From an uncultured Defluviitaleaceae bacterium (GTDB lineage: Bacteria > Bacillota > Clostridia > Lachnospirales > WRAX01), in assembly GCA_964583165.1 (NCBI GenBank), contig CAZOVK010000001.1, positions 60,025-124,024 of the forward strand: a stretch of 64,000 nucleotides of DNA. Direction: 5' to 3'. This document shows positions 22,898 to 64,000 of this stretch, in pieces. A program made the translations under genes and the position numbers. Under the pieces are notes generated by a model. The model saw nothing but the letters and a program-made list of their open reading frames with translations, did not search any database and had not been told where the DNA came from. Each line of letters begins with the position of its first letter. Within the stretch, counting starts at the first letter, position 1.

Positions 22898-24214
22898 ATG
22901 GCAAATTTTGAGATACTAGAGGGCAACAAGGCGCAGTTGACGCTGTTTGTTGACGCCGCGCGCTTTGAAGAAGGCATACAGCAAGCTTATTTGAAAAATC
23001 GCGCGAAGATTACTATGCAGGGTTTCCGCCCGGGCAAGGTTCCGCGCAAGATGATAGAGATGCGTTACGGCAAAGAGTTTTTCTATGACGAAGCGATTGA
23101 TTTTGTATTCTCGCCCGTTTATGCGGCGGCAGTTTTAGAGCATAATCTTAAAGTGGTTTCTACGCCAGAACTCACGAACATGAACGTGGACGATAACGGC
23201 GCTCTCACGCTTGTTGTGAACGTAATTCTACGACCTACGCCCGTTGTTAATAACTACAAGGGGCTTACCTATAAACCGTATTCAGTGGAAGTGACAGAAG
23301 AAGAGATTTTGGCGGAGATTAACAAGGCGCGAGATAAGAATGCGCGTATCACAACTGTTGAAGGCAGAGCTATTGAGAACGGTGACACGGCTGTTATTGA
23401 TTTCGCGGGCTTCATTGACGAAGAGGCGTTTGACGGTGGCGCGGGTGTTGATTTCGAGCTTACTATCGGTTCACATACGTTTATTGACACGTTTGAAGAC
23501 CAGTTAATCGGTAAGAACGTCGGCGAATCTACGGACGTTTTCGTGCGCTTCCCGGACGATTATCGCGCTGAACACCTCGCGGGCAAGGAAGCGCGTTTTG
23601 CCGTTTCGATTAAGGAAATTAAGTGTAAGGAACTGCCGGAACTGAACGACGACTTTGCCGCCGATGTGTCGGAGTTTGACACACTAGACGCATACAAGGC
23701 CGATGTAGCCAAGAAGATTTCTGAACAGAAACAGAAGGAAAAGGAAAACAACGAAGAGAACCAAATCATGATTAAGCTGTTGGGCGAGCTTGTTTGTGAC
23801 GTGCCGGCGGTTATGATTGAGAACCAAATCGACGCAATGATTAACGACATGAAGAGCCGTATCGAGCGTCAGGGTATCGATTTCGAGATGTTCATGCAAT
23901 ACACGGGCCGTGACATGCAGAGTCTGCGTGAGCAGTATCGCTCAGAAGCGACAACAAATGTCAACCTTCGCCTTGCGCTTGAAGAAGTGGCGCGTATGGA
24001 AGGCATTGAGATTTCAGACGATGAGTTCGACGCTGAAATCGAACGCGCAGTTGTTATGTACGGCATGGACAAGGAAACGCTTCTTGCAAACCTTGGCAAC
24101 ACAGAAAAAGAAAACATCAAGACGGACTTAAAGGTTCAAAAAGCGGTAAAGATAGTTATTGACAATGCCGTAGCCGTAGAAGGCGAAGAAGCCGCTACAG
24201 CTTCAGAGGAGTAA
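22898..24214 (+). CDS. tig: Trigger factor
   Basis: N-terminal ribosome-binding signature [13 protein letters not shown], a central FKBP-like domain, and tig-clpP-clpX synteny. Confidence 0.93.
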
Positions 24215-24900: not shown

Positions 24901-26217
24901 ATGCCATCAAAGAAAGACGGCGGCAGAACCATACACTGTTCATTTTGCGGTAAATCACAGGATATGGTGAAGCGCTTTATCGCGGGTGTGAACGCATACA
25001 TCTGTAATGAATGTGTTGACCTATGCTCCGAGATTCTGTATGAAGACTTGCACGACGACAGGCTCGAGGACTTCTATGAGCGCGAGATAAGCGTCAAAGA
25101 GGGCGGTGTGAAAATACTAAAACCCGCCGAGATAACGAAATACTTAGACGAATATGTCATCGGTCAACAAAGCGCGAAACGTGCCTTGGCTGTTGCCGTA
25201 TACAATCACTATAAGCGCATCACTATGAGCAAGAATGACGGCGTTGAGCTGGCGAAGAGCAATATTTTGCTTCTGGGGCCGACAGGTGTGGGTAAGACCT
25301 TCTTAGCCCAGACACTAGCGCGTATGCTCGAAGTACCGTTCGCGATAGCTGACGCGACGAGTTTGACAGAGGCCGGTTATGTAGGCGAAGATGTGGAAAA
25401 TATTCTGCTTCGCTTGATTCAAGCCGCCGATTTTGACATAAAGCGCGCTGAAACGGGCATTATCTACATCGATGAAATCGACAAGATTTCACGCCGTTCA
25501 GACAACCCGTCTATAACGCGCGACGTTAGCGGCGAGGGTGTTCAGCAGGCGCTTTTGAAGATTTTAGAGGGTACGGTTGCGAACGTACCGCCGCAAGGTG
25601 GGCGCAAACACCCACACCAAGACTTCATACAGATTGACACGTCTAATATTCTGTTCATCTGTGGTGGGGCGTTCGGCGGGCTTGAAAAGATAATCGAACA
25701 GCGCATGAACAAGCGCACAATCGGTTTTGGCGCGTCCGTTCACTCAAAATCAGACAAACTGGGCATTGACATGCTTCAAGAAGTCCAGTCACAGGATTTG
25801 GTGAAGTACGGGCTTATCCCTGAGCTTATCGGGCGTTTGCCTGTTGTTGTAACACTGGCGAGCCTTGACGAAAAAGCACTCATGAAGATTCTCGTAGAGC
25901 CTAAGAATGCGCTCACGAAACAATATCGTTACCTGTTTGAACTCGATGACGTTCAGTTAGAGTTTGAAGACGACGCGTTGCGTGAAGTCGCGAAGCTTGC
26001 GATTGAGCGCGAAACGGGCGCGCGTGGTTTGCGCTCTATAATTGAAGCGTTCATGCTCGATATAATGTATGAGATACCCGAAGACAGCACGATTGAAAAG
26101 TGCATCATAACTAAAGAAGCTGTCAAAGGTTCGGGTAAGCCCATCTACATTTTCAATGAGAATAAAGAAGCCCAAAGTTTAGCCGGAAAGCGTGCCAAAA
26201 AGAACAACGCTTCTTAG
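24901..26217 (+). CDS. clpX: ATP-dependent Clp protease ATP-binding subunit ClpX
   Basis: N-terminal zinc ribbon CSFCGK..CNECV, Walker [17 protein letters not shown] and a GARGLR sensor. Confidence 0.96.
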
Positions 26218-55445: not shown

Positions 55446-55576
55446 ACGGATTGCCCTCCTTCTACATTCGATTCTGATAACCCTAGCGCTAGCCAATACC
55501 TCCAATATCCTTATAAATCCATACTAAAACCTTATCAAAAACTGTGATTATTCGTTAATTCAGTTCAGATAAACTT

Positions 55577-55605
55577 AATGTAGCATGATTGGGGGCACAA
55601 GTCAA
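55577..55605 (-). promoter_or_regulatory. Sigma-A-type promoter reading toward the AlkD-like gene
   Basis: The minus strand reads TTGACT, 17-nt spacer, TACATT. Confidence 0.55.
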
Positions 55606-55640
55606 GTTTTGCTGGCAGACGTGGCGAATCATGTATGTTA

Positions 55641-56144
55641 CTAATGCCAGTATAATGGAAGCCCTGCTCCTGTAAGTATACAAAACATTATTAAGGTCGT
55701 AATAGATATTGTTATGTAATATAATAACCTCCACATTTTAGTAATATAAATCTGAAAAGTTCCTAATGTAAAGACCAAACAAACAGCCAAAACTATAATC
55801 AAATGCCAAGTTGGATGGTAAAAATAATACGAATCTGGCGGGAACCAATTATCAAGTATCTCCCACCCGTTTTCTTTTTTGGGCGTGAGCAAGCTATTGG
55901 TGACAGAAAAAATCACACACCAAGCTACTGTGCTACAAAGACGACACAATACTACTTCTCCGAAAGATTTAAATGAGGTCAGCGAATGATTAATTGCTCT
56001 TTGTTTATTTATACCCAGAATTATTACGATAAGAATACTTTCGACTACAAAATAGAGCAAGAAATAAACGCCGACTTCGAGCATACCACAAAGAAGAAGT
56101 GTAAATAAATACATACAACACCCCATAAAAGAATAATTTCTCAT
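55641..56144 (-). CDS. Orphan multi-pass membrane protein (island cargo)
   Basis: 167-aa AT-rich ORF with 5 hydrophobic segments and a Trp/Tyr-rich loop (NWFPPDSYYFYHPTWH). No family recognised. Confidence 0.45.
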   Translation of the reverse strand: MRNYSFMGCCMYLFTLLLCGMLEVGVYFLLYFVVESILIVIILGINKQRAINHSLTSFKSFGEVVLCRLCSTVAWCVIFSVTNSLLTPKKENGWEILDNWFPPDSYYFYHPTWHLIIVLAVCLVFTLGTFQIYITKMWRLLYYITISITTLIMFCILTGAGLPLYWH

Positions 56145-56515
56145 ATACTTCGAAAGCTGCCAAGTTCAGCCCGACAGCTTTCGATAAAATGAATAGTACC
56201 CATTGTATTGGTTAGCGTCCGAAATCTATACAGGGATTTGAACCCTCATGCTTACCAAGATGCAATGAATCAAAGCAGTTTCTTACTCACAGTATATCAT
56301 CCGAATGAAACTCCGTCAAATCCATTTAGTCGCCAAACCAATATCAGTACCTCTGGTGAATATCCGTGCCTCACGTCGCCCGCCAGACTTATGAGCGAGA
56401 AAGTTCAATAACTTTTCAGCAAACTTATCGATAATTATGGCATACATTGCGATATTCCCGGTGCTTAGGGGTGTGAGCTTATGAAGAAAGAAAAACGGGC
56501 TTTTATGCCACATGA

Positions 56516-56728
56516 GAAATTGCATATAATGATGATATAATCGACTGTTTTGTGAATTCAGTTTATTTGTTTGATGACAAGCTTATTATTACCTATAATT
56601 TGACAAATGAAAAATCCGAACTCGAGGGCTCGGATTTAACGTTCTTGTACGCGTTGAATACGGGCGAGTGTTCGCCTATGACACACTCAAATGGAGATGA
56701 GGGGCGACTGTCTGTACTCTTGACTTAA
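56516..56728 (+). pseudogene. C-terminal remnant of a large serine recombinase gene
   Basis: An open frame without a start reads ..IIDCFVNSVYLFDDKLIITYNLTNEKSELEGSD.. This matches the conserved C-terminal tail (I..FV..IYLYDDK..ITFN) of phage/ICE serine recombinases as I recall it. Possible further fragments lie in other frames at 56412-56515. No catalytic domain is present. Confidence 0.5.
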
Positions 56729-56970
56729 TGCTTGATTGTGGTTACTGTTTATAGCTATTAAAGTCAAGGGACATTGTCAGTACTTACAAAGCTGTAATTT
56801 TCTTAAAATGTCTTATTTTTTTGCAACTGCAAACAAAGTAAAAGCAACGTCAATTTTTCCGACGTACTACGTGTCTTGTGTTCGCATTGTCTCCATAATT
56901 AGTAAAACACTACTGCCGAGTATAGCCTACAATCAAACGGTTTGCACAAACAGCAAACTTATCTAGTTGG

Positions 56971-57570
56971 TTAGGTTTTGCGAACTATATTTAACAAAAA
57001 GATAAAATCCTCTTTTCCGCTCCCTGTATATAATTCATCCGTGGTAATCTGGATTCTTTTATTTACAATAATTATTGAATGTATCGTTTCATTCGTGCTG
57101 ACTGAACGCACTATCCCTTCATATACTTTGTATCCGAAAAACTGTAGCATCGGATTCATGTAAGTCATATGGTTAGATATATAAATGTATCCTACAAGGA
57201 TCATTAAAAATAACAATACAAAGACATCTACAATATTATTTAGAGTTAATCCCAGACATGACAAGAGATAAATAGATATGTAATTAAAGTAAACACTTCC
57301 TGTCTGGTCTTCTACACTAACGATTTCATAGTAATGTGTACCACCATCTTTTTTAATGATAACTTTCAAATATAGACATGACACCACGCACAACAGTATC
57401 AGAATAATAATCGCATAATCATTTACTTCATCAAAGTATTTTGCTGTTATCAATTTCGACAACGAAAACACAAAACGCCCGCCATCTGTACAGCGCTCCA
57501 GTACATTCTTAATCACTAATAATATATATAACGGAACATAAGAAGAAATAAATAACAATATTCTTCTCAA
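56971..57570 (-). CDS. Four-TM membrane protein with a ~65-aa C-terminal soluble tail; putative membrane partner of the KwaB-like gene (KwaA-like role)
   Basis: TTG start at 57570 follows AAAGGGGGGAATAA. TM segments lie at about residues 4-24, 52-72, 93-110 and 113-131, then NHMTYMNPMLQFFGYKVYEGIVRSV... Co-directional with and immediately downstream of 57671-58537. Confidence 0.6.
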   Translation of the reverse strand: MRRILLFISSYVPLYILLVIKNVLERCTDGGRFVFSLSKLITAKYFDEVNDYAIIILILLCVVSCLYLKVIIKKDGGTHYYEIVSVEDQTGSVYFNYISIYLLSCLGLTLNNIVDVFVLLFLMILVGYIYISNHMTYMNPMLQFFGYKVYEGIVRSVSTNETIHSIIIVNKRIQITTDELYTGSGKEDFIFLLNIVRKT

Positions 57571-57670
57571 TTATTCCCCCCCTTTATACCTGCTTGGTAT
57601 TCCTGAATTGCAGATGCAATCATTTTGTTGCTTGTCAACGCATCTATAACATAGTGCCTTAAAAGCAAGT

Positions 57671-58537
57671 TTAAAATTTCTGGTATATCTTTTTTACACG
57701 ATAAATTATAACGCCTTCCGTAGATGTTATGAGAGTTAAACCAAATTCATTAATTATATTCGGTACTTCTGCTGTTTTTTTGGCAACTTCATCGAATCCT
57801 TTTGCCAGAATCACTTTTGTCAATCGTTTCAAATATCTGCCGTCAGATTCACAATCATCTACAAACTGAGCTGGATCTGCTAGTAATCCACTATCGCAGA
57901 TCATCTGAGAATTAGCATGTAATATCTTTATGAATACATCACTATATGCAAATATTGAGTTAAATATATTCCGATTGAAAACATAATAAGTGTCTCCAAG
58001 CAAAAACGCATCAACAGATGAATTTATCGTAATGATTTCATCCCTAAAGGGCTTTAACAATCCACCTGATAACACATATTTTTGGCTTGTCCTATATGCG
58101 GTTGATTGATGGGTGTACTTTTTGAATATATACAAAGACTTACCTTGAACATCGACCTGAATAACCATGAAATCAATTTTAGACAAATCCGTGTTTTTTG
58201 ATACTACGTTATCATCAGTGTATTTTATTGTTATTTGGCTTAGGACTTCATCACTGTGAATAACATCACTCTTGTCTACCATTTGTGTAGAATCGTCGAC
58301 AGATATATCCAAGTCGTAAGCATCTAAAGTCCTTTTTTCGATTTCGTTAATTATAAGGGTAAGAGAATCAATAATAACAGATTTGGCATCTTCAATTTCT
58401 GTTTTTAACATCTTCCCTCTGTATCGCTGTTTGCGATTATTATTTTGATCTACCAACATAATGTTTATTTCTGCCGTATTATCTTCTACGGCTTGGTTAA
58501 TAACACTTAGCTCTATTTTTAGTTCATCTTTCTCCAT
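57671..58537 (-). CDS. KwaB-like (DUF4868-like) soluble protein, zero-frame product; a -1 frame extension reaches 57567
   Basis: ATG 58537 follows TGGGGG. The segment DFMVIQVDVQGKSLYIFKKYT..LLKPFRDEIITINSSVDAFLLGDTYYVFNRNIFNSIFAY resembles the DUF4868 core as I remember it. The zero frame stops at 57671, 100 nt before the next gene. Confidence 0.6.
   Translation of the reverse strand: MEKDELKIELSVINQAVEDNTAEINIMLVDQNNNRKQRYRGKMLKTEIEDAKSVIIDSLTLIINEIEKRTLDAYDLDISVDDSTQMVDKSDVIHSDEVLSQITIKYTDDNVVSKNTDLSKIDFMVIQVDVQGKSLYIFKKYTHQSTAYRTSQKYVLSGGLLKPFRDEIITINSSVDAFLLGDTYYVFNRNIFNSIFAYSDVFIKILHANSQMICDSGLLADPAQFVDDCESDGRYLKRLTKVILAKGFDEVAKKTAEVPNIINEFGLTLITSTEGVIIYRVKKIYQKF
57689..57695 (-). other. 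A_AAA_AAG heptamer in the zero frame (candidate -1 frameshift site or homopolymer indel)
   Basis: The minus strand reads cgt gtA AAA AAG ata. The -1 frame continues KKDIPEILNLLLRHYVIDALTSNKMIASAIQEYQAGIKGGNN and stops at TGA 57569-57567, overlapping TTG 57570-57568. Confidence 0.5.
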
Positions 58538-58679
58538 TCGGATGCCCCCATTCATCTTCTAAAGTAGCACTTGTCGTTAATCTTAGTGAAATGACAACTT
58601 CTCTATATTGCCGTCATCACCTAGAAGCCAAGTTCTCTGTATCTTTCAAAACTCACAGCAACAGGAATATTTCAGCAAT

Positions 58680-58708
58680 ATTGTACACTAAGAATCTAAA
58701 AATGTCAA
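58680..58708 (-). promoter_or_regulatory. Near-consensus sigma-A promoter of the KwaB-like/membrane operon
   Basis: The minus strand reads TTGACA (58708-58703), 17-nt spacer, TACAAT (58685-58680), about 140 nt upstream of ATG 58537. Confidence 0.7.
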
Positions 58709-58901
58709 ATGTTTTGCTAGACGTCACTTTTCTATAATATTGTGTGTATTCGTAATCATAATAATTAACGCTCTCTTGTATTCAGGAAGTATTGTCTGTA
58801 TTTCGTAGGCATTCGTTTTTGTTCTATATTATTAACACAATGACAGTCACAAAGCTACACTTTGTTTTAACCACACTTACGAGCATATATTATTACCCAG
58901 A

Positions 58902-58931
58902 AGCCCCAGAGAATAAAATTTCTCTCGGGCT
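58902..58931. other. 12-bp imperfect hairpin in the divergent intergenic region
   Basis: AGCCCCAGAGAA-taaaat-TTCTCTCGGGCT (11 of 12 paired). There is no clear T tail on either strand. It lies directly 3' of a 32-codon minus-strand ORF (MDCRKKKFTDEAEMLENQRVVLVQLLSVSLMS). Confidence 0.4.
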
Positions 58932-59095
58932 TTCATGACATTAAACTCACTGAAAGGAGTTGAACCAACACAACCCGCTGATTTTCAAGCATTTCTGCCT
59001 CGTCAGTGAATTTTTTCTTGCGACAATCCATTGTATTATCGAAATGCTTATCTACTCGAGTTGGGATATGATTTATTTATCCTTAACTATAAGAG

Positions 59096-59368
59096 GTGAA
59101 TGCCATTGATGTAAGCGAACTAGATGTGTCATGTTTTAATGGCTGTTACAGAGATTTGGTTGAACTGATTGGGCATGACAATACGCTGATTCTTTACAGA
59201 GCTTATGCGGGTCAGTATGTTTCGTTTCCGAAGAAACTACTGGCAGACAGCTTTGTACATGAGCAGATTATCAAGGAATACAACAGCGTGAATGCCAAAG
59301 AACTAGCCAGAAAGTACGGTTATACATACAGCTGGATTATGAAGCTGATTAAAAAACTAAAAGACTGA
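59096..59368 (+). CDS. Mor-family transcription activator-like protein
   Basis: DLVELIGHDNTLILYRAYAGQYVSFPKK plus the C-terminal HTH-like NAKELARKYGYTYSWIMKLIKK resemble Mu Mor-family proteins. The GTG start has a poor RBS, so the exact start is uncertain. Confidence 0.55.
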   Translation: MNAIDVSELDVSCFNGCYRDLVELIGHDNTLILYRAYAGQYVSFPKKLLADSFVHEQIIKEYNSVNAKELARKYGYTYSWIMKLIKKLKD

Positions 59369-59380
59369 GGAGAGATTGTT

Positions 59381-59734
59381 ATGGCTAACAAGAGCTTTAT
59401 GTTGGCAAAACCCCTTGAAGCCGAAGAAGCCTTTGAGTATTTGAGAGCTAACCTGCGCTCCACAAAGGTTACATCCATTACCTATGACCCCAACATGAAA
59501 CGTGTTGACATAGGTGGGCGTTACCACAACTATCAATTGAGTTTTTATGGCAATCAAGTGACAGTTGCAACAAAGATTGTTCAGAAATGGTCTTACATAA
59601 TCATTGCATGTGCCGTTACTGGGCTGTTCCTCTTTATACCATTCATTATTGCTATAGTGATAGCCTTTATCGCAAACTCCGAGATTTCGGAACTAACTAC
59701 CCTTTTCCAGCAAACCCTCAATATGAAGCAATAG
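59381..59734 (+). CDS. Hypothetical C-terminally membrane-anchored protein
   Basis: Strong RBS GAGGAGAG. A 70-aa polar N-domain precedes a long hydrophobic segment (WSYIIIACAVTGLFLFIPFIIAIVIAFIA). Confidence 0.5.
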   Translation: MANKSFMLAKPLEAEEAFEYLRANLRSTKVTSITYDPNMKRVDIGGRYHNYQLSFYGNQVTVATKIVQKWSYIIIACAVTGLFLFIPFIIAIVIAFIANSEISELTTLFQQTLNMKQ

Positions 59735-59744
59735 GGCGATACAG

Positions 59745-59778
59745 TCTCAACCTCATTGGCGGGGTTGGGACTTTTTTT
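59745..59778 (+). terminator. Intrinsic terminator of the Mor-like operon
   Basis: TCTCAACC / GGTTGGGA 8-bp stem (one G-U pair) with a 10-nt loop, followed by cTTTTTTT. Confidence 0.7.
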
Positions 59779-59968
59779 GAGAAGAATCTAGGTATTCATT
59801 CGCCACTACAAAATCTTGGATATTCAACGGAAATTACAGGTAGTGACGAAGTAACGGGCATTTTTAAACTTTCCCCATTCACATACGCCACCACTCTATT
59901 TTTTATTTTTTTCGTTACTTCAGTACTACTTCACTATTGTACTTTTAGTTACATTCAATATTTGCTTC

Positions 59969-60005
59969 AAAAAAAGATAATGACAGTGGTTAACCTATCA
60001 TTATC
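59969..60005 (-). terminator. Probable terminator of the minus-strand DpnD-DUF1643 operon
   Basis: GATAATGA / TCATTATC 8-bp arms around a 14-nt loop containing GGTTAACC, followed on the minus strand by T7. It begins 16 nt after the last stop codon. Confidence 0.5.
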
Positions 60006-60021
60006 CCTTTTGCAACTTCAA

Positions 60022-60159
60022 TTACTTACGACGAACAGTTTTGCTAGTCTTTGTGGCTGTATAGAGCGTAACCCCTAACAAAGCTCCCTTTGTGAACATC
60101 TCCACAAAACCAACTGTTGCACTAGCTGTTGCCAATGACGCTATCCATACACTTAACAT
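60022..60159 (-). CDS. 45-aa hydrophobic peptide with a basic tail
   Basis: MLSVWIASLATASATVGFVEMFTKGALLGVTLYTATKTSKTVRRK. Its ATG overlaps the stop region of the preceding 30-codon ORF (ATGTTAA). Confidence 0.4.
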   Translation of the reverse strand: MLSVWIASLATASATVGFVEMFTKGALLGVTLYTATKTSKTVRRK

Positions 60160-60245
60160 GAAGCAACAACCCTTGAAGTAAATAGCATATCCATCCCATA
60201 CAATGCCACTAGAGCAAACGCAATACCACACAGAAAATAGACCAT
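60153..60245 (-). CDS. 30-aa hydrophobic peptide
   Basis: MVYFLCGIAFALVALYGMDMLFTSRVVASC. ATG 60245 lies 6 nt after GGGAG. Below the 60-aa cutoff of the ORF track. Confidence 0.4.
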   Translation of the reverse strand: MVYFLCGIAFALVALYGMDMLFTSRVVASC

Positions 60246-60275
60246 TATATCTCCCTCTGGAATGTTAATCACTTT

Positions 60276-60641
60276 CTAATCCCTCAAATCATCTAGCCAA
60301 TGCATAGGGGTTATTGCCATTGGAATGAATACATTTATACCAAACTCGTTGTTTCTTAGAAGTAGTGCGTTTACATATGCCATCTGCTCGCACTCTACAA
60401 TGCTTACATATTCGGGCAAGGCTACATCCAAGCAGACATTCAAAGCAATAGCGTCATCTATATCCCGAACATTTTGTAACACCAATACAAAGCCACCATC
60501 AGCCCTGTCTACATCACGAGTTGAGCCGTAGTTGTCGTCTAGTGCAATTACAATATTCAGAATGACTTGAAAGACTTCATTGGGAATATAGTCCTTGATT
60601 TCTTCAAGTTCAGCAACAGTTCCTACCTTATATATAGCACA
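60276..60641 (-). CDS. Hypothetical ~120-aa protein lacking a canonical start at its 5' end
   Basis: The frame is open from 60641 (..IYKVGTVAELEEIKDYIPNEVFQVILNIVIALDDNYGSTRDVD..), but the first ATG/GTG/TTG is TTG 60485. An RBS-preceded ATG at 60642 is out of frame, just before a (TA)4 tract. Confidence 0.4.
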   Translation of the reverse strand, partial: CAIYKVGTVAELEEIKDYIPNEVFQVILNIVIALDDNYGSTRDVDRADGGFVLVLQNVRDIDDAIALNVCLDVALPEYVSIVECEQMAYVNALLLRNNEFGINVFIPMAITPMHWLDDLRD

Positions 60642-60710
60642 TCACCCAACCTCTCATTGGAAAAGAAGTCCACATCATATTCCTATTACCTTAGAACGAG
60701 GCTATTATTT

Positions 60711-61253
60711 CTAGTTGCCGTTACCTTCGGGAGCTTCTGATTTCTTGTCAAATAGGTATTCTGGCAATACAAACTTTTCTAGCAACCAATGTTCCCGAAT
60801 CTGAGGAGCAAGTGGATGAAAGCCATATTCACCGTTTACGCTCTGAATGTGATACAGCTTGTCGGCAAATGGTTTGAGCTTCTCAATCAAGCTTAGTTGC
60901 ACAAGCCTGACTTTCTTGTTATTCTCGCCGATTTTACCCCATGAGATGATTACCTTTTGGGAGCGTTCGGCTGATTTAAGGATTTGCTCAAGATTGGCGG
61001 AATCTAGTGCAATATCTCCTTTGGTGTCTAGCTTTGCAGAAATCTGGCTTGTCATATTGAGTATATCAACACCGCCTAGCCCTAACTTGGACAAATGATT
61101 GATTATGTACATTGTTGTGTAATCAAGCGCAACTGTATCAGCCATGCTGGGGTTTGTCATAATTATGTTTGCGATGGGCTTCTTATCATCCCACACCTTT
61201 CTGAGCAGATATCTATGTGTTCTGTCGTTACTGAAGATAGCTTCGGTTTTCAA
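60711..61253 (-). CDS. DUF1643-family protein
   Basis: FSNDRTHRYLLRKVW..IIMTNPSMAD..YGFHPL matches the DUF1643 signature (YRY.L.R.W, NPS.AD, HPL) as I recall it. TTG start without a clear RBS, so the start is uncertain. Confidence 0.7.
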   Translation of the reverse strand: MKTEAIFSNDRTHRYLLRKVWDDKKPIANIIMTNPSMADTVALDYTTMYIINHLSKLGLGGVDILNMTSQISAKLDTKGDIALDSANLEQILKSAERSQKVIISWGKIGENNKKVRLVQLSLIEKLKPFADKLYHIQSVNGEYGFHPLAPQIREHWLLEKFVLPEYLFDKKSEAPEGNGN

Positions 61254-61342
61254 AACATTTTTGTCGGTTACTATAGTTCATTCCCCCACTCATTTTGATT
61301 ATTCTTTAGCAAATCCAATTAGCAGATTTGCAAATACATGAA

Positions 61343-61519
61343 TCAGACATCGGCTACTTTTCTTGCATTGAATGTTACGCCTTGAAAGTCGCCACTGTCC
61401 AAAATTACATGCTCATCATGATACTGTTGTTCGGCTATGCGGAGTGCTTCTTCTGTTGATTCAGCTTCAATAACGAGCATTCCGGCAAGTGTTTCTTTAA
61501 TCTCAACCGTAAACTTCAT
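61343..61519 (-). CDS. DpnD/PcfM-like small protein
   Basis: The 58-aa ORF is below the track cutoff: MKFTVEIKETLAGMLVIEAESTEEALRIAEQQYHDEHVILDSGDFQGVTFNARKVADV. AGGAG RBS is present. The pattern (MKF.VEI.E.L...V.VEA...EEA......Y....I.LD..DF) fits DpnD/PcfM. Confidence 0.6.
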   Translation of the reverse strand: MKFTVEIKETLAGMLVIEAESTEEALRIAEQQYHDEHVILDSGDFQGVTFNARKVADV

Positions 61520-61735
61520 TTGAACCTTCTCCTTTCTTGTATGGTTTGGAATCGAAACTTAAAAAAGCTTGACTATCATGCGATTGATTCAAGTAAATAA
61601 TATATTCTTGTGATGTTGTTAGGTACTATTTATATGAACTAATGTGTATATTTGAATGCTATTCCTCAACTATTGATTGTTATTGCAAAACGCATGACTG
61701 GACAGGAATAGGGCGTTATGCGCAATATAATTGCA

Positions 61736-61760
61736 ATATTGACAAAAATATTGTCATTAT
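61736..61760. promoter_or_regulatory. Operator-like inverted repeat in the divergent control region
   Basis: ATATTGACAA-aaata-TTGTCATTAT (9 of 10 symmetric), containing a TTGACA hexamer. An adjacent palindrome GCAAT-ATA-ATTGC (61722-61734) contains TATAAT. Confidence 0.4.
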
Positions 61761-61962
61761 TTCCGATCTACTGTTTATCCTTGTCGCATATAATAGTTAA
61801 GAGATGATTTCGATCCTTGCTAATATCCCGATTTTTCGGTCAGTGCTTTGACAAGAGAATACATCATCAGTGGTTAATATCGCTTTTATATCTAGCACTG
61901 GATTAAGCAGTCAACTTTTATACTATATATAAAACCATATAACAAGAATAGGGGAAAAAATT

Positions 61963-63756
61963 ATGCGTCTAATAATCAACAAGAGCAAACATGTATCGAC
62001 ACAATCTTCTACCACAACAACCGCTTCGACAGCTGGATCTAATGCGATGACTCAGGTTAAGCCCAAGCCATCAACTGGTTTATCGAGAACTTGCTCCAAA
62101 TGTCCAAAGCTCAAGCAGATGCTGGGATTGCAACTGAACAATCAACTTACAAGGCATGATTGGGAATTGGCTGTACGTTTACTTGTTGACAACGGATACA
62201 TTGCTCTTGCACGAGAGTTTTCACGCTTGTCATCAAAACATGACTTTAACAGCGAGAACTGGATTGACAGTTTGTTATCAAGAGATTATATTTACCCAGT
62301 GACTTGTGTTTCTCTAGGTTGTACAAAATTCAATGTGGGGAAATGCTGCGAACAGATTAAGTATAACGAGAGTAAAGCAATTATAAATTCACCAAATGAG
62401 CACATTAGGAGCAAAAGAGACTTTAACAAGACGTAGGCTTTTCATACAATGACAATGGGGTACTGAAGGGTTTGAATGCCAATCAGTTTATACCTCACAT
62501 CTTGGCAAACTTCGATAGTGCAATTAATAACAACAGTGTGTATTATATATATCTGAACGATTGTTGGAGAAGTGAAGAATTAAGCTTTATTCGTAGAATT
62601 CTAATGCGGTTTTTCGATTCGTTTGAGCGTGACCAATGGAACGAGCAGTATGAACGCAAGTACTTGCACCAGTTACCGCTTTGCGCCCCCAAGACAGAGA
62701 ACCTAAGTGACGGCACCAAATATCTTAATCTAACCAATGGACTGTATGATCTTGATAAAATGGCTTTGGTTAAGCATGACAAGGGAATCTTCTCAACCGT
62801 TCACATCCCCATCGCTTACAACAGGAACGCAGAATGTCCTATATTCATGCATTTCTTGGATGATATATTTGAAGGTGATAAGGAACTTATCAAGCTCGTT
62901 CAAGAAATCATGGGGTATTGCTTGTGCCAATCATCACAAGCCCAGAAGTTCTTTATCTTTCTAGGCGGAGGAGCTAACGGCAAGTCGCTATTGTGCAATG
63001 TGATTGCGTCTATGGTCGGTAAAGATAATGTTAGTAGTGTATCTTTGAGACAGCTTAGCGGACAGTTTGACACGTCTGATATGGTGGGGAAACTGGTTAA
63101 CATTTCCACAGAAAACGAGATGAACGGGATGAAAGTCGACACCGAAATTCTCAAAGCTATATCTGCGGGTGACAAAATCAATGTTCAGCGAAAATACAAA
63201 GACGCTTTTACGACTACAATTACCGCTAAACTTATCTTTGCCGTTAACCAGCTCCCAAACTCCCAAGACACCACAGAAGCTTTTTTCCGCAGACTGATTA
63301 TTGTCCCCTTCAACAGAACCTATGTTGAAGAACACGCCAATGAATATCTGGGAAAAATTGACACAACACTAGAACCAAGGATTCTCAAAGAGCGTGAAGG
63401 CATTCTCAATTTCGCGCTTCAAGGTTATGAGAGGTTAAAAGCAAGCGGTTTCTATTTTACTAAAGCTAGCAAGTCACTCGATATTTTAGATGAATACCAA
63501 CAAGCACTGAATCCAATTCAAATGTTTGTTGACGAATGTATAGAGGAGTTCTCAAGACCCCTCGAAAAAAACAGCAATAGGATTGCGTTAGACGAGCTGT
63601 ATGAGTGTTATGGTTGTACCACAGTTCAATTATGAATACAAGCTCTTTGACTCTATTATGTACTTTTCTTTACAAATTAGTTCAAAAACTGGAGATATAT
63701 TGTTATTGTATAATGGAATTGCTATATTATCATGTTACCATTTTACACCTCTTTGA
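61963..63756 (+). pseudogene. Phage/plasmid primase, P4 family (D5-type NTPase), split across three reading frames
   Basis: ORF 62472-63635 has the P4-family C-terminal helicase-primase pattern (Walker A GGGANGKS, VNISTE, FRRLIIVPF). Its frame is open back to 62427 and overlaps ORF 61963-62436 by 10 nt in the -1 frame. A third frame (63592-63756) continues past the 63635 stop. Confidence 0.65.
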
Positions 63757-63849
63757 TCTTACTTCAAGGAAAATCCCTATATATATTAGCAAATTTTATT
63801 TCAACTGTAATGCGTCAAGTGTATTAAGTTTTGACTATATGTTAAAACA

Positions 63850-63875
63850 AGGCAGCCAAAGCCGCCTAGATTTTG
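63850..63875. terminator. Possible bidirectional terminator hairpin
   Basis: AGGCAGC-caaa-GCCGCCT (one mismatch), followed by agaTTTT on the plus strand and TTGTTTT on the minus strand. Confidence 0.45.
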
Positions 63876-64000
63876 GGTATATCATAGAGTATGGCAATCT
63901 GGCTATGCAATCGATGCATGCTAGATTATGTATCGCAGGTAATTACGTTTTGAATTGTCCGATAATATGCGCGTCAACTCTATAGTATCTGTCAAAAATA

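What the first reader, a model, noticed from the sequence alone, without database searches (positions are those of the whole stretch)
56971..58708. Kiwa-like two-gene module with inverted gene order and an atypical membrane partner: best candidate for a novel defence variant
The low-GC island carries a self-contained minus-strand unit. It has a near-consensus promoter (TTGACA-17-TACAAT), a soluble 288-aa protein (323 aa with the -1 extension) and a 199-aa four-TM protein. The distal two thirds of the soluble protein (DFMVIQVDVQGKSLYIFKKYT...LLKPFRDEIITINSSVDAFLLGDTYYVFNRNIFNSIFAY) match my recollection of the DUF4868 domain of KwaB. Published Kiwa is KwaA (about 200 aa, 4 TM) followed by KwaB (DUF4868). 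Here the order is reversed, the two genes appear translationally coupled, and the membrane protein has an extra ~65-aa soluble tail. This is either a divergent Kiwa subtype or DUF4868 recruited to a different membrane effector. The location, as cargo of a decayed mobile element next to a recombinase remnant, is typical of defence genes.
Basis: partly seen in the sequence, partly recalled or inferred. Interest (0 to 1): 0.8.

Follow-up and report, generated by a model that had tools for sequence, protein, structure and literature searches.

The report
Frameshifted Kiwa (kwaB-kwaA) defence operon
This is an ordinary member of the known Kiwa anti-phage system, in the kwaB-then-kwaA gene order normal for its Firmicute branch, and its kwaB gene is broken by a one-base frameshift, so it is a routine annotation, not a new kind of defence.

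Summary
On the minus strand there is a near-consensus promoter (58708-58680), a DUF4868 gene (58537-57671, 288 aa) and a 199-aa four-TM gene (57570-56971). A -1 shift or a one-A insertion at an A6 run (57695-57690) extends the first gene to 323 aa, and its TGA then overlaps the TTG start of the second.

Both proteins are canonical Kiwa components.
- The soluble protein passes Pfam KwaB. It reaches full profile length after repair, and its model matches only KwaB structures.
- The membrane protein hits 13 PADLOC KwaA models. It aligns end to end with E. coli KwaA (PDB 9mrg), and its model matches only KwaA structures (TM 0.70).
- The "extra" C-terminal tail is the normal cytoplasmic beta-barrel of KwaA.

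The kwaB-to-kwaA order really is the reverse of the order annotated on two Emticicia plasmids. However, all 55 related loci that carry both genes have it. A paper on S. thermophilus lists it for the Kiwa of strain 90730, which gave 4-5 logs of phage protection.

The only individual feature here is the frameshift. It removes the two most conserved C-terminal helices of KwaB and uncouples kwaA. It is a recent inactivating mutation or a homopolymer sequencing error. Novelty and interest are low.

The parts
58680..58708 (-). Sigma-70-type promoter-like site, TTGACA-17 nt-TACAAT. It lies about 140 nt upstream of the kwaB start.
   Evidence: 11 of 12 matches, the best site in the region. It is a consensus match only, and transcription is not shown.
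57671..58537 (-). kwaB as it reads in the deposited sequence: 288 aa plus stop. It holds the N-terminal Rossmann-like domain and most of DUF4868. The last 5 residues (IYQKF) are out of frame.
   Evidence: Pfam PF16162 KwaB 3.5e-18, profile positions 1-167 of 186. PADLOC KwaB PDLC00231 2.8e-18. PHROG 11123 8.6e-30. Identical to P0122, 288 aa. The start at 58537 fits the N-termini of homologues.
57690..57695 (-). A6 homopolymer run, the site of the frameshift. In the 0 frame it reads GT[A AAA AAG].
   Evidence: Adding one A restores a 323/329-aa protein. That protein covers the Pfam profile 1-186 of 186 at 79 bits and aligns with relatives to their ends. Facklamia L014 has the intact 'aaa aaa gat' at these codons.
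57567..57689 (-). The 3' end of kwaB in the -1 frame: 40 codons (DIPEILNLLLRHYVIDALTSNKMIASAIQEYQAGIKGGNN) plus a TGA that overlaps the kwaA start.
   Evidence: This stretch holds the most conserved KwaB segment of the clade and is undecayed. The same TTGA/GTGA stop-start overlap occurs in L001-L004.
57576..57585 (-). Shine-Dalgarno-like AAAGGGGGGG, 5 nt upstream of the kwaA TTG start.
   Evidence: Read directly from the sequence. Function is inferred.
56971..57570 (-). kwaA: 199 aa, TTG start, four TM helices plus a cytoplasmic beta-barrel. The gene is intact.
   Evidence: 13 PADLOC KwaA models, best 1.8e-26. PDB KwaA 9mrg_A at 2e-6 over the full length, and 5.5e-9 with the clade profile. NCBIfam KwaA 7e-19, below its cut-off. 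AF2 model pLDDT 76, with only KwaA chains as Foldseek hits. The TTG start is conserved in L001-L003.
56940..56958 (-). Weak terminator-like hairpin 13 nt after the kwaA stop. A second candidate lies at 56865-56847.
   Evidence: 6-bp stem and a poor T tract. This is weak evidence only.

Best explanation
The module is a two-gene Kiwa anti-phage/anti-plasmid operon. It belongs to the branch common in gut Bacillota (Firmicutes), where kwaB precedes kwaA and its stop overlaps the kwaA start. It was brought in as a self-contained cassette near the end of a low-GC mobile element.

The mechanism is inferred by homology to the E. coli system and is not shown here. KwaA tetramers sit in the membrane through four TM helices. 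Their cytoplasmic beta-barrels dock KwaB dimers into a supercomplex. Membrane disturbance at phage attachment or DNA entry activates the complex. KwaB then binds the incoming DNA through DUF4868, stalls replication and blocks late gene expression.

In this genome a one-base deletion in an A7 run (now A6) shifts the kwaB frame after residue 283. That removes the two C-terminal helices, which carry the most conserved motif of the clade, and ends translation 100 nt before kwaA. As sequenced, the system is most likely inactive or badly impaired. The lesion is very recent, because the downstream frame shows no decay. If the lesion is a homopolymer sequencing error, the operon is intact and presumably active.
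For: Family membership of both proteins:
- Pfam KwaB scores above its cut-off.
- PADLOC KwaB and KwaA profiles match.
- Both proteins match solved Kiwa chains by sequence.
- AlphaFold models match only KwaA or only KwaB chains.

Clade-wide architecture:
- 55 of 55 related loci have kwaB immediately upstream of kwaA on the same strand.
- The closest relatives show the same TTGA/GTGA overlap.

Cassette nature: only the two genes are shared with related loci, and no flanking genes are shared.

Mobile context:
- Mor-family activator, DUF1643, DpnD/PcfM-like protein and a D5_N/DUF5906 primase.
- A serine-recombinase remnant.
- A drop in GC content.

Frameshift:
- The repaired protein aligns to the end of all relatives.
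- The missing segment holds invariant residues N290, L293, H295, V297, A300, L301, T302, M306, A308, A310, I311 and Y314.
- In the model it forms helices 282-302 and 304-319.

Mechanism and the need for both genes: PMC11785009. Activity of a kwaB-kwaA system in a Firmicute: PMC11514479.
Against: - Nothing here shows expression or activity.
- The NCBIfam equivalog models for KwaA and KwaB score below their curated cut-offs: 68 against 100 bits and 45 against 200 bits. The proteins are therefore distant from the E. coli type, at about 14-21% identity.
- The KwaA-KwaB interface residues described for E. coli (for example H156, Y181 and F183) are not conserved in the pairwise alignment. Complex formation is therefore inferred from co-inheritance, not shown.
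- The KwaB model superposes on solved KwaB with a TM of only 0.41-0.48. This is probably a difference in domain orientation.
- Whether the frameshift is real cannot be decided from a single assembly.
Confidence: 0.9

Rival explanations
1. The frameshift is a homopolymer sequencing or assembly error. The real locus would be an intact, functional kwaB-kwaA operon encoding a 323-aa KwaB.
For: - The -1 frame downstream is perfectly preserved and close to its relatives.
- The lesion sits in a homopolymer run.
- kwaA and the promoter are intact.
- Several metagenomic relatives also show fragmented kwaB, which could partly be assembly noise.
Against: - An A6/A7 run is short for a systematic error in short-read data.
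- The deposited protein set carries the truncated 288-aa product.
- No reads are available to check.
Confidence: 0.3
2. The interruption is functional. GT[A AAA AAG] is a dnaX-type -1 slippery heptamer in the correct phase. Ribosomal -1 frameshifting, or slipped-strand phase variation between A6 and A7, would then produce full-length KwaB at a low or switchable level and set the KwaB dose and kwaA coupling.
For: - A -1 slip at this heptamer yields exactly the orthologous C-terminus.
- From my own knowledge, A AAA AAG is slippery in bacteria that have a single tRNA-Lys(UUU).
Against: - No relative has an interrupted frame at this site, and most have no A run there at all.
- The downstream RNA is no more structured than shuffled sequence (z -0.76).
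- No SD-like stimulator lies upstream.
- A6/A7 is short for a phase-variation tract.
Confidence: 0.04
3. One reading: DUF4868 recruited to a non-KwaA membrane effector, giving a new two-gene system.
For: - The local Pfam copy gives no significant hit for the 199-aa protein.
- NCBIfam KwaA scores below its cut-off.
Against: - 13 PADLOC KwaA profiles match.
- The protein matches solved KwaA over its full length by sequence.
- Its model matches only KwaA chains, at TM 0.70.
- All homologues, including the window's own product P0001, carry the same precomputed Pfam family PF28043.
Confidence: 0.01

Closest known systems
Kiwa of E. coli O55:H7 RM12579 / ECOR strains (KwaA-KwaB supercomplex; PDB 9mrg, 9mrr, 9mrx, 9mtn, 9nyu; PMC11785009)
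   Same: - Two adjacent, co-oriented genes with overlapping stop and start.
- KwaA of about 195-200 aa with four TM helices and a cytoplasmic beta-barrel made from ICL1 and the C-terminus.
- KwaB of about 315-325 aa with an N-terminal Rossmann-like domain and a C-terminal DUF4868.
- Both match end to end by profile and by fold.
- Frequent carriage on mobile elements.
   Different: - Gene order is kwaB then kwaA here. It is kwaA then kwaB in the type system (my own knowledge) and in the annotated Emticicia plasmids, which were found here as relatives of the E. coli KwaB.
- Sequence identity is only about 14-21%.
- The E. coli interface residues are not conserved.
- The scores fall below the NCBIfam equivalog cut-offs.
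- kwaB is frameshifted here.
Kiwa of Streptococcus thermophilus 90730 (St90730_688/689; PMC11514479)
   Same: - Firmicute host.
- Listed as (kwaB, kwaA) for consecutive forward-strand ORFs spanning 1553 bp. The repaired window module spans about 1568 bp.
- Found by PADLOC.
[quoted passage not shown]
   Different: It is intact, whereas the window's kwaB is not.
Uncharacterised kwaB-kwaA pairs of gut Bacillota (L001-L058; for example Proteiniclasticum sp. QWL-01, Blautia, Ruminococcus, Schaedlerella, Facklamia)
   Same: - Same order and the same tight junction.
- Up to 71% (KwaB) and 74% (KwaA) identity.
- NCBI already names one such KwaB 'Kiwa anti-phage protein KwaB-like domain-containing protein'.
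   Different: The flanking genes differ in every case. Most relatives have an uninterrupted kwaB.
Split-KwaB Kiwa variants (PMC11785009)
   Same: KwaB is not encoded as a single uninterrupted ORF.
   Different: - Published splits separate the Rossmann-like and DUF4868 domains into two genes.
- Here the break lies 40 codons from the end, inside DUF4868.
- The distal piece has no start codon of its own, so this is a frameshift and not a fission.

Membership tests
Kiwa defence system | KwaB carries the DUF4868 / KwaB-like domain (Pfam PF16162). | tested here: met
   66.7 bits against a gathering cut-off of 26.3, profile positions 1-167 of 186, as sequenced. After frame repair, 79 bits over 1-186 of 186. 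Five to six PADLOC KwaB models match.
Kiwa defence system | KwaB has a two-domain fold (Rossmann-like N-domain plus helical DUF4868) like the solved KwaB. | tested here: met
   The AF2 model has pLDDT 84. The six significant Foldseek PDB hits are all KwaB chains (E 1.4e-9 to 3.8e-8, probability 1.00, about 312-329 aligned columns). Global TM is only 0.41-0.48. The clade profile aligns 9-307 to 3-302 of the 315-aa E. coli KwaB at E 6e-4.
Kiwa defence system | KwaA is an integral membrane protein of about 200 aa with four TM helices. | tested here: met
   Hydropathy and model helices at 2-27, 49-73, 93-106 and 113-132. Thirteen PADLOC KwaA models match, the best at 1.8e-26.
Kiwa defence system | KwaA has a cytoplasmic beta-barrel formed by ICL1 and the C-terminus, which is the docking site for KwaB. 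| tested here: met
   Model strands at 79-88, 147-156, 162-170, 180-186 and 189-196. Foldseek 9mrx_A: TM 0.70 over 195 columns. Sequence alignment runs through the C-terminus. The barrel is described in PMC11785009.
Kiwa defence system | kwaA and kwaB are adjacent and co-oriented in one operon. | tested here: met
   Same strand, one promoter-like site, and a stop-start overlap after repair. Adjacency holds in 55 of 55 relatives. The order is the reverse of the type system. To my knowledge, order is not part of the PADLOC or DefenseFinder definition.
Kiwa defence system | Both genes are intact. Both are required for defence (PMC11785009). | tested here: not met
   kwaA is intact. kwaB is frameshifted at 57690-57695 and loses its last 40 residues. 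The feature would be met if the frameshift is a sequencing error.
Kiwa defence system | KwaA and KwaB assemble into a membrane complex. | not testable with these tools
   No multimer prediction or experiment is available. The E. coli interface residues are not conserved in the pairwise alignment. Strict co-inheritance is the only support.
Kiwa defence system | The system protects against phage infection or conjugation. | not testable with these tools
   The only evidence is by analogy: the S. thermophilus kwaB-kwaA pair is active, as are five Kiwa operons from Proteobacteria (four E. coli strains and Ralstonia mannitolilytica).
NCBIfam equivalogs KwaA (NF041622) and KwaB (NF041623) | The score reaches the curated equivalog cut-off. 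| tested here: not met
   KwaA scores 68.3 bits against 100, and KwaB 44.8 against 200. The proteins are homologues but lie outside the narrow E. coli-type equivalog. This explains the 'hypothetical protein' names given to relatives.
Split-KwaB Kiwa variant | KwaB is divided at the domain boundary into two genes, each translated on its own. | tested here: not met
   The break is at residue 283 of 323, inside DUF4868. The distal 40 codons have no start codon or SD of their own.

The most novel reading that the evidence does not exclude
The one-base interruption may be a regulatory device, not a defect. The in-phase slippery heptamer A AAA AAG would let a fraction of ribosomes shift -1 and make full-length KwaB, which would also restore translational coupling to kwaA. 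Alternatively, the A6/A7 tract would phase-vary. Either would give dose-limited or switchable Kiwa immunity.
Probability: 0.04. Interest if true: 0.5.

Novelty: new member of a known kind. Interest (0 to 1): 0.15.

Why it matters
It matters little beyond correct annotation. Three small points are useful.

(1) Kiwa exists in two fixed gene orders. The kwaB-kwaA order is invariant in a large clade dominated by gut Bacillota (55 of 55 loci), while the two Emticicia plasmids examined here carry kwaA-kwaB. The two papers read here do not discuss this. It might bear on subunit stoichiometry, since the E. coli complex has about two KwaB per KwaA, but that is speculation.

(2) NCBI's equivalog models miss this clade, so its KwaA members are labelled hypothetical. 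The deposited gene call for this kwaA also starts 18 codons too late and cuts into TM1.

(3) The locus is an example of a defence cassette caught just after inactivation, or of a homopolymer error, and should not be counted as an intact system without checking the reads.

Tried and rejected
- Megablast of the island (55.5-62 kb) against plasmids gave no match.
- tblastn of the repaired KwaB against plasmids and phages gave no match. The clade is therefore not represented in those collections at that sensitivity.
- The viral-contig scan with KwaA found one locus only (L018).
- Exact look-ups of the window's proteins to name the host failed. Cluster look-up showed only that the window comes from an NCBI contig of 176,036 bp. 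The host remains an unnamed Bacillota-like genome, with a PASTA kinase, FtsH and a Bacillus-type SbcC.
- Rfam found nothing in the whole window and there are no tRNAs. No direct repeats that could mark att sites occur in 54-64 kb. The island's right end lies outside the window.
- Pfam, PHROG and NCBIfam gave nothing for the recombinase fragment or for the 167-aa membrane ORF. The fragment was identified only by tblastn to a phage integrase.
- I looked for a frameshift-stimulating RNA structure downstream of the slippery site and found none.
- The Doron et al. 2018 paper could not be retrieved. The kwaA-then-kwaB order of the E. coli type system therefore rests on my own knowledge plus the annotated Emticicia plasmids.
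- I considered whether the interruption is a 'split KwaB' variant and rejected it, because the break is in the wrong position and the distal piece has no start.
Full report
**What is there.**
The minus strand of 56.9-58.7 kb carries a compact unit.
- The best sigma-70-like site of the region, TTGACA-17-TACAAT with 11 of 12 matches, lies at 58708-58680.
- An ORF runs 58555-57671, 294 aa from the first ATG. The ATG at 58537 gives 288 aa. That start matches the N-termini of homologues (consensus MxKDxxK) and the product as deposited in NCBI (P0122, 100% identical, same 176,036-bp contig).
- After a 100-nt gap, a 199-aa ORF runs 57570-56971. It has a TTG start preceded by AAAGGGGGGG.
- The unit lies in a low-GC stretch of 32-41%, which starts near 55.5 kb and runs to the window end. 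Upstream GC is 45-57%.

**Identity of the two proteins.**
The 288/294-aa protein is KwaB.
- It passes Pfam PF16162 (KwaB-like, DUF4868) at 66.7 bits against a cut-off of 26.3.
- It hits five PADLOC KwaB models over nearly its whole length.

The 199-aa protein is KwaA.
- It hits thirteen PADLOC KwaA models, the best at 1.8e-26 over residues 3-177.
- It aligns 4-192 to 9-190 of the 195-aa E. coli KwaA whose structure is solved (9mrg; E 2e-6). With a profile of the clade the E-value is 5.5e-9.
- A profile of the clade's KwaB aligns 9-307 to 3-302 of the 315-aa E. coli KwaB (E 6e-4).

The structure predictions agree.
- The KwaA model (pLDDT 76) has four long helices and five strands. Two helices fall in residues 2-27, followed by 49-73, 93-106 and 113-132. 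The strands come from the intracellular loop and the C-terminus.
- Its only significant PDB matches are seven KwaA chains, the best being 9mrx_A at TM 0.70 over 195 columns.
- The repaired KwaB model (pLDDT 84) matches six KwaB chains and nothing else significantly (E about 1e-9). Global TM is only 0.41-0.48, probably because of domain orientation.

The Kiwa structure paper describes KwaA as four TM helices plus a cytoplasmic beta-barrel made of the intracellular loop ICL1 and the C-terminus (PMC11785009).

**The frameshift.**
- The 0 frame of kwaB stops at 57671.
- Reading one A of the A6 run at 57695-57690 twice continues the protein with DIPEILNLLLRHYVIDALTSNKMIASAIQEYQAGIKGGNN. The new stop is a TGA that overlaps the TTG start of kwaA as TTGA.
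- The repaired protein covers the Pfam profile 1-186 of 186 at 79 bits. It aligns with relatives to their last residues.
- The restored segment holds the most conserved stretch of the clade, with twelve invariant positions between N290 and Y314. It forms the last two helices of the model.
- The four closest genomic relatives have the same TTGA/GTGA junction.
- Facklamia L014 has the intact 'aaa aaa gat' at the same codons. The lesion is therefore the loss of one A from an A7 run.
- The shifted frame shows no decay, so the event is very recent or is a homopolymer sequencing error. A single assembly cannot decide between these.
- If the lesion is real, KwaB lacks its C-terminal helices. The paper states that C-terminal regions contribute to KwaB oligomer contacts and that both genes are needed for defence.
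- In that case translation also ends 100 nt before kwaA, so coupling is lost, although kwaA keeps its own SD-like sequence.

**Gene order.**
I collected relatives from species-representative genomes (17 loci), viral contigs (1 locus) and metagenomes (40 loci). I scored them with HMMs built from alignments of the clade.
- All 55 loci that hold both genes have kwaB immediately upstream of kwaA on the same strand. None has the opposite order.
- The hosts named in the records are mainly Clostridia, Lachnospiraceae, Blautia, Ruminococcus, Schaedlerella, Eubacterium and Facklamia.
- By contrast, two Emticicia plasmids carry genes annotated kwaA then kwaB with a 4-bp overlap. They were found with the E. 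coli KwaB sequence.
- The inversion is thus real and is a fixed trait of a large clade, not a peculiarity of this locus.
- It is also in print. The S. thermophilus 90730 system is listed as 'Kiwa (kwaB, kwaA) 0688, 0689, 673224-674776' on the forward strand. It was found by PADLOC, and the cloned pair reduced plaquing of lactococcal phages sk1 and c2 by 5 and 4 logs (PMC11514479).
- NCBI already names a 69%-identical KwaB homologue as a KwaB-like domain protein.
- The NCBIfam equivalog models score below their cut-offs: 68 of 100 bits and 45 of 200 bits. This explains why KwaA relatives are labelled hypothetical.

**Context.**
- Nucleotide similarity to related loci is confined to the two genes, and none of the island's other ORFs has a match there. 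The pair therefore moves as a cassette.
- The island also encodes a Mor-family activator (59096-59368), a DUF1643 protein (60711-61253, minus strand), a DpnD/PcfM-like protein (61343-61519, minus strand) and a D5_N/DUF5906 primase (62472-63635).
- At 56516-56647 (+) lies a 44-aa remnant that is 52% identical to residues 438-481 of a 524-aa phage large serine recombinase.
It fits the report that about half of Kiwa loci sit in mobile elements.

**How it most likely works.**
This is inferred by homology and not shown here. KwaA tetramers in the membrane dock KwaB dimers on their cytoplasmic barrels. Membrane disturbance at phage DNA entry or conjugation activates the complex. KwaB then binds the incoming DNA through DUF4868, stalls replication and prevents late transcription (PMC11785009). 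The E. coli interface residues H156, Y181 and F183 are not conserved in the alignment, so the details of docking may differ.

**Rival readings.**
- A sequencing error, meaning an intact system: about 0.3.
- A functional interruption: about 0.04. GT[A AAA AAG] is, from my own knowledge, the dnaX-type -1 slippery heptamer, and it is in phase here. A -1 slip gives exactly the orthologous protein. However, no relative is interrupted there and most have no A run. The downstream RNA is no more stable than shuffled sequence (z -0.76).
- A non-KwaA membrane partner: refuted.

**Verdict.**
This is a new member of a known system in an arrangement that is already documented, and it is probably inactivated. 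Interest is low.

Noticed in passing
window 56516-56647 (+), open frame to 56725: C-terminal remnant of a large serine recombinase: 44 aa, 52% identical to residues 438-481 of the 524-aa integrase of Dulem virus 37 (Resolvase + Recombinase + Zn_ribbon_recom). No other part of the gene is left anywhere in the window.
   Followed up: yes
window ~55500-64000: Low-GC island (32-41%) with mobile-element genes: a Mor-family activator (59096-59368), DUF1643 (60711-61253, minus strand), a DpnD/PcfM-like protein (61343-61519, minus strand) and a D5_N/DUF5906 primase (62472-63635). No flanking direct repeats were found, and the right end lies beyond the window. The type of element (prophage remnant, satellite or ICE) is undetermined.
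   Followed up: partly
window 55641-56144 (-): A 167-aa hydrophobic ORF at the left edge of the island, with no hit in Pfam, PHROGs or NCBIfam.
   Followed up: partly
window 57517-57570 (-): The deposited gene call for kwaA (P0001, 181 aa) starts at an internal GTG, codon 19, and removes most of TM1. The TTG start at 57570 is supported by the conserved N-terminus MRRI(L/M)LF and by the same TTGA junction in relatives.
   Followed up: yes
window 57689-57697 (-): The frameshift site reads GT[A AAA AAG] in the 0 frame. This is a classical -1 slippery heptamer in phase, and a -1 slip reproduces the orthologous KwaB C-terminus. No stimulatory structure was found and the feature is not conserved.
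   Followed up: partly
L013, L027, L028, L056, L057 (kwaB) and L015 (kwaA): Several related loci have kwaB or kwaA broken into two or more frame fragments. L015 has kwaA fragments without kwaB. This is either recurrent decay of the cassette or errors in metagenome assemblies.
   Followed up: no
L004 (Prevotella MAG) and L016 (Methanobrevibacter MAG, 1690-bp contig): kwaB-kwaA of the Bacillota type lies on contigs binned to a Bacteroidota genome and an archaeal genome. This is either horizontal transfer or binning contamination. In L016 the kwaA match stops after about 26 residues.
   Followed up: no
L059 and L060 (Emticicia oligotrophica plasmids NC_018749 and NC_018742): Both plasmids of one strain carry a kwaA-kwaB pair directly downstream of a TolC-family gene. 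On one plasmid an HlyD-family gene also lies upstream, and on the other IS110 and IS3 transposases lie next to the pair. This looks like a duplicated module on two replicons.
   Followed up: no
window 22898-24214 and 24901-26217 (+): Two ORFs of identical length (438 aa) lie 700 bp apart on the same strand. They were not examined.
   Followed up: no
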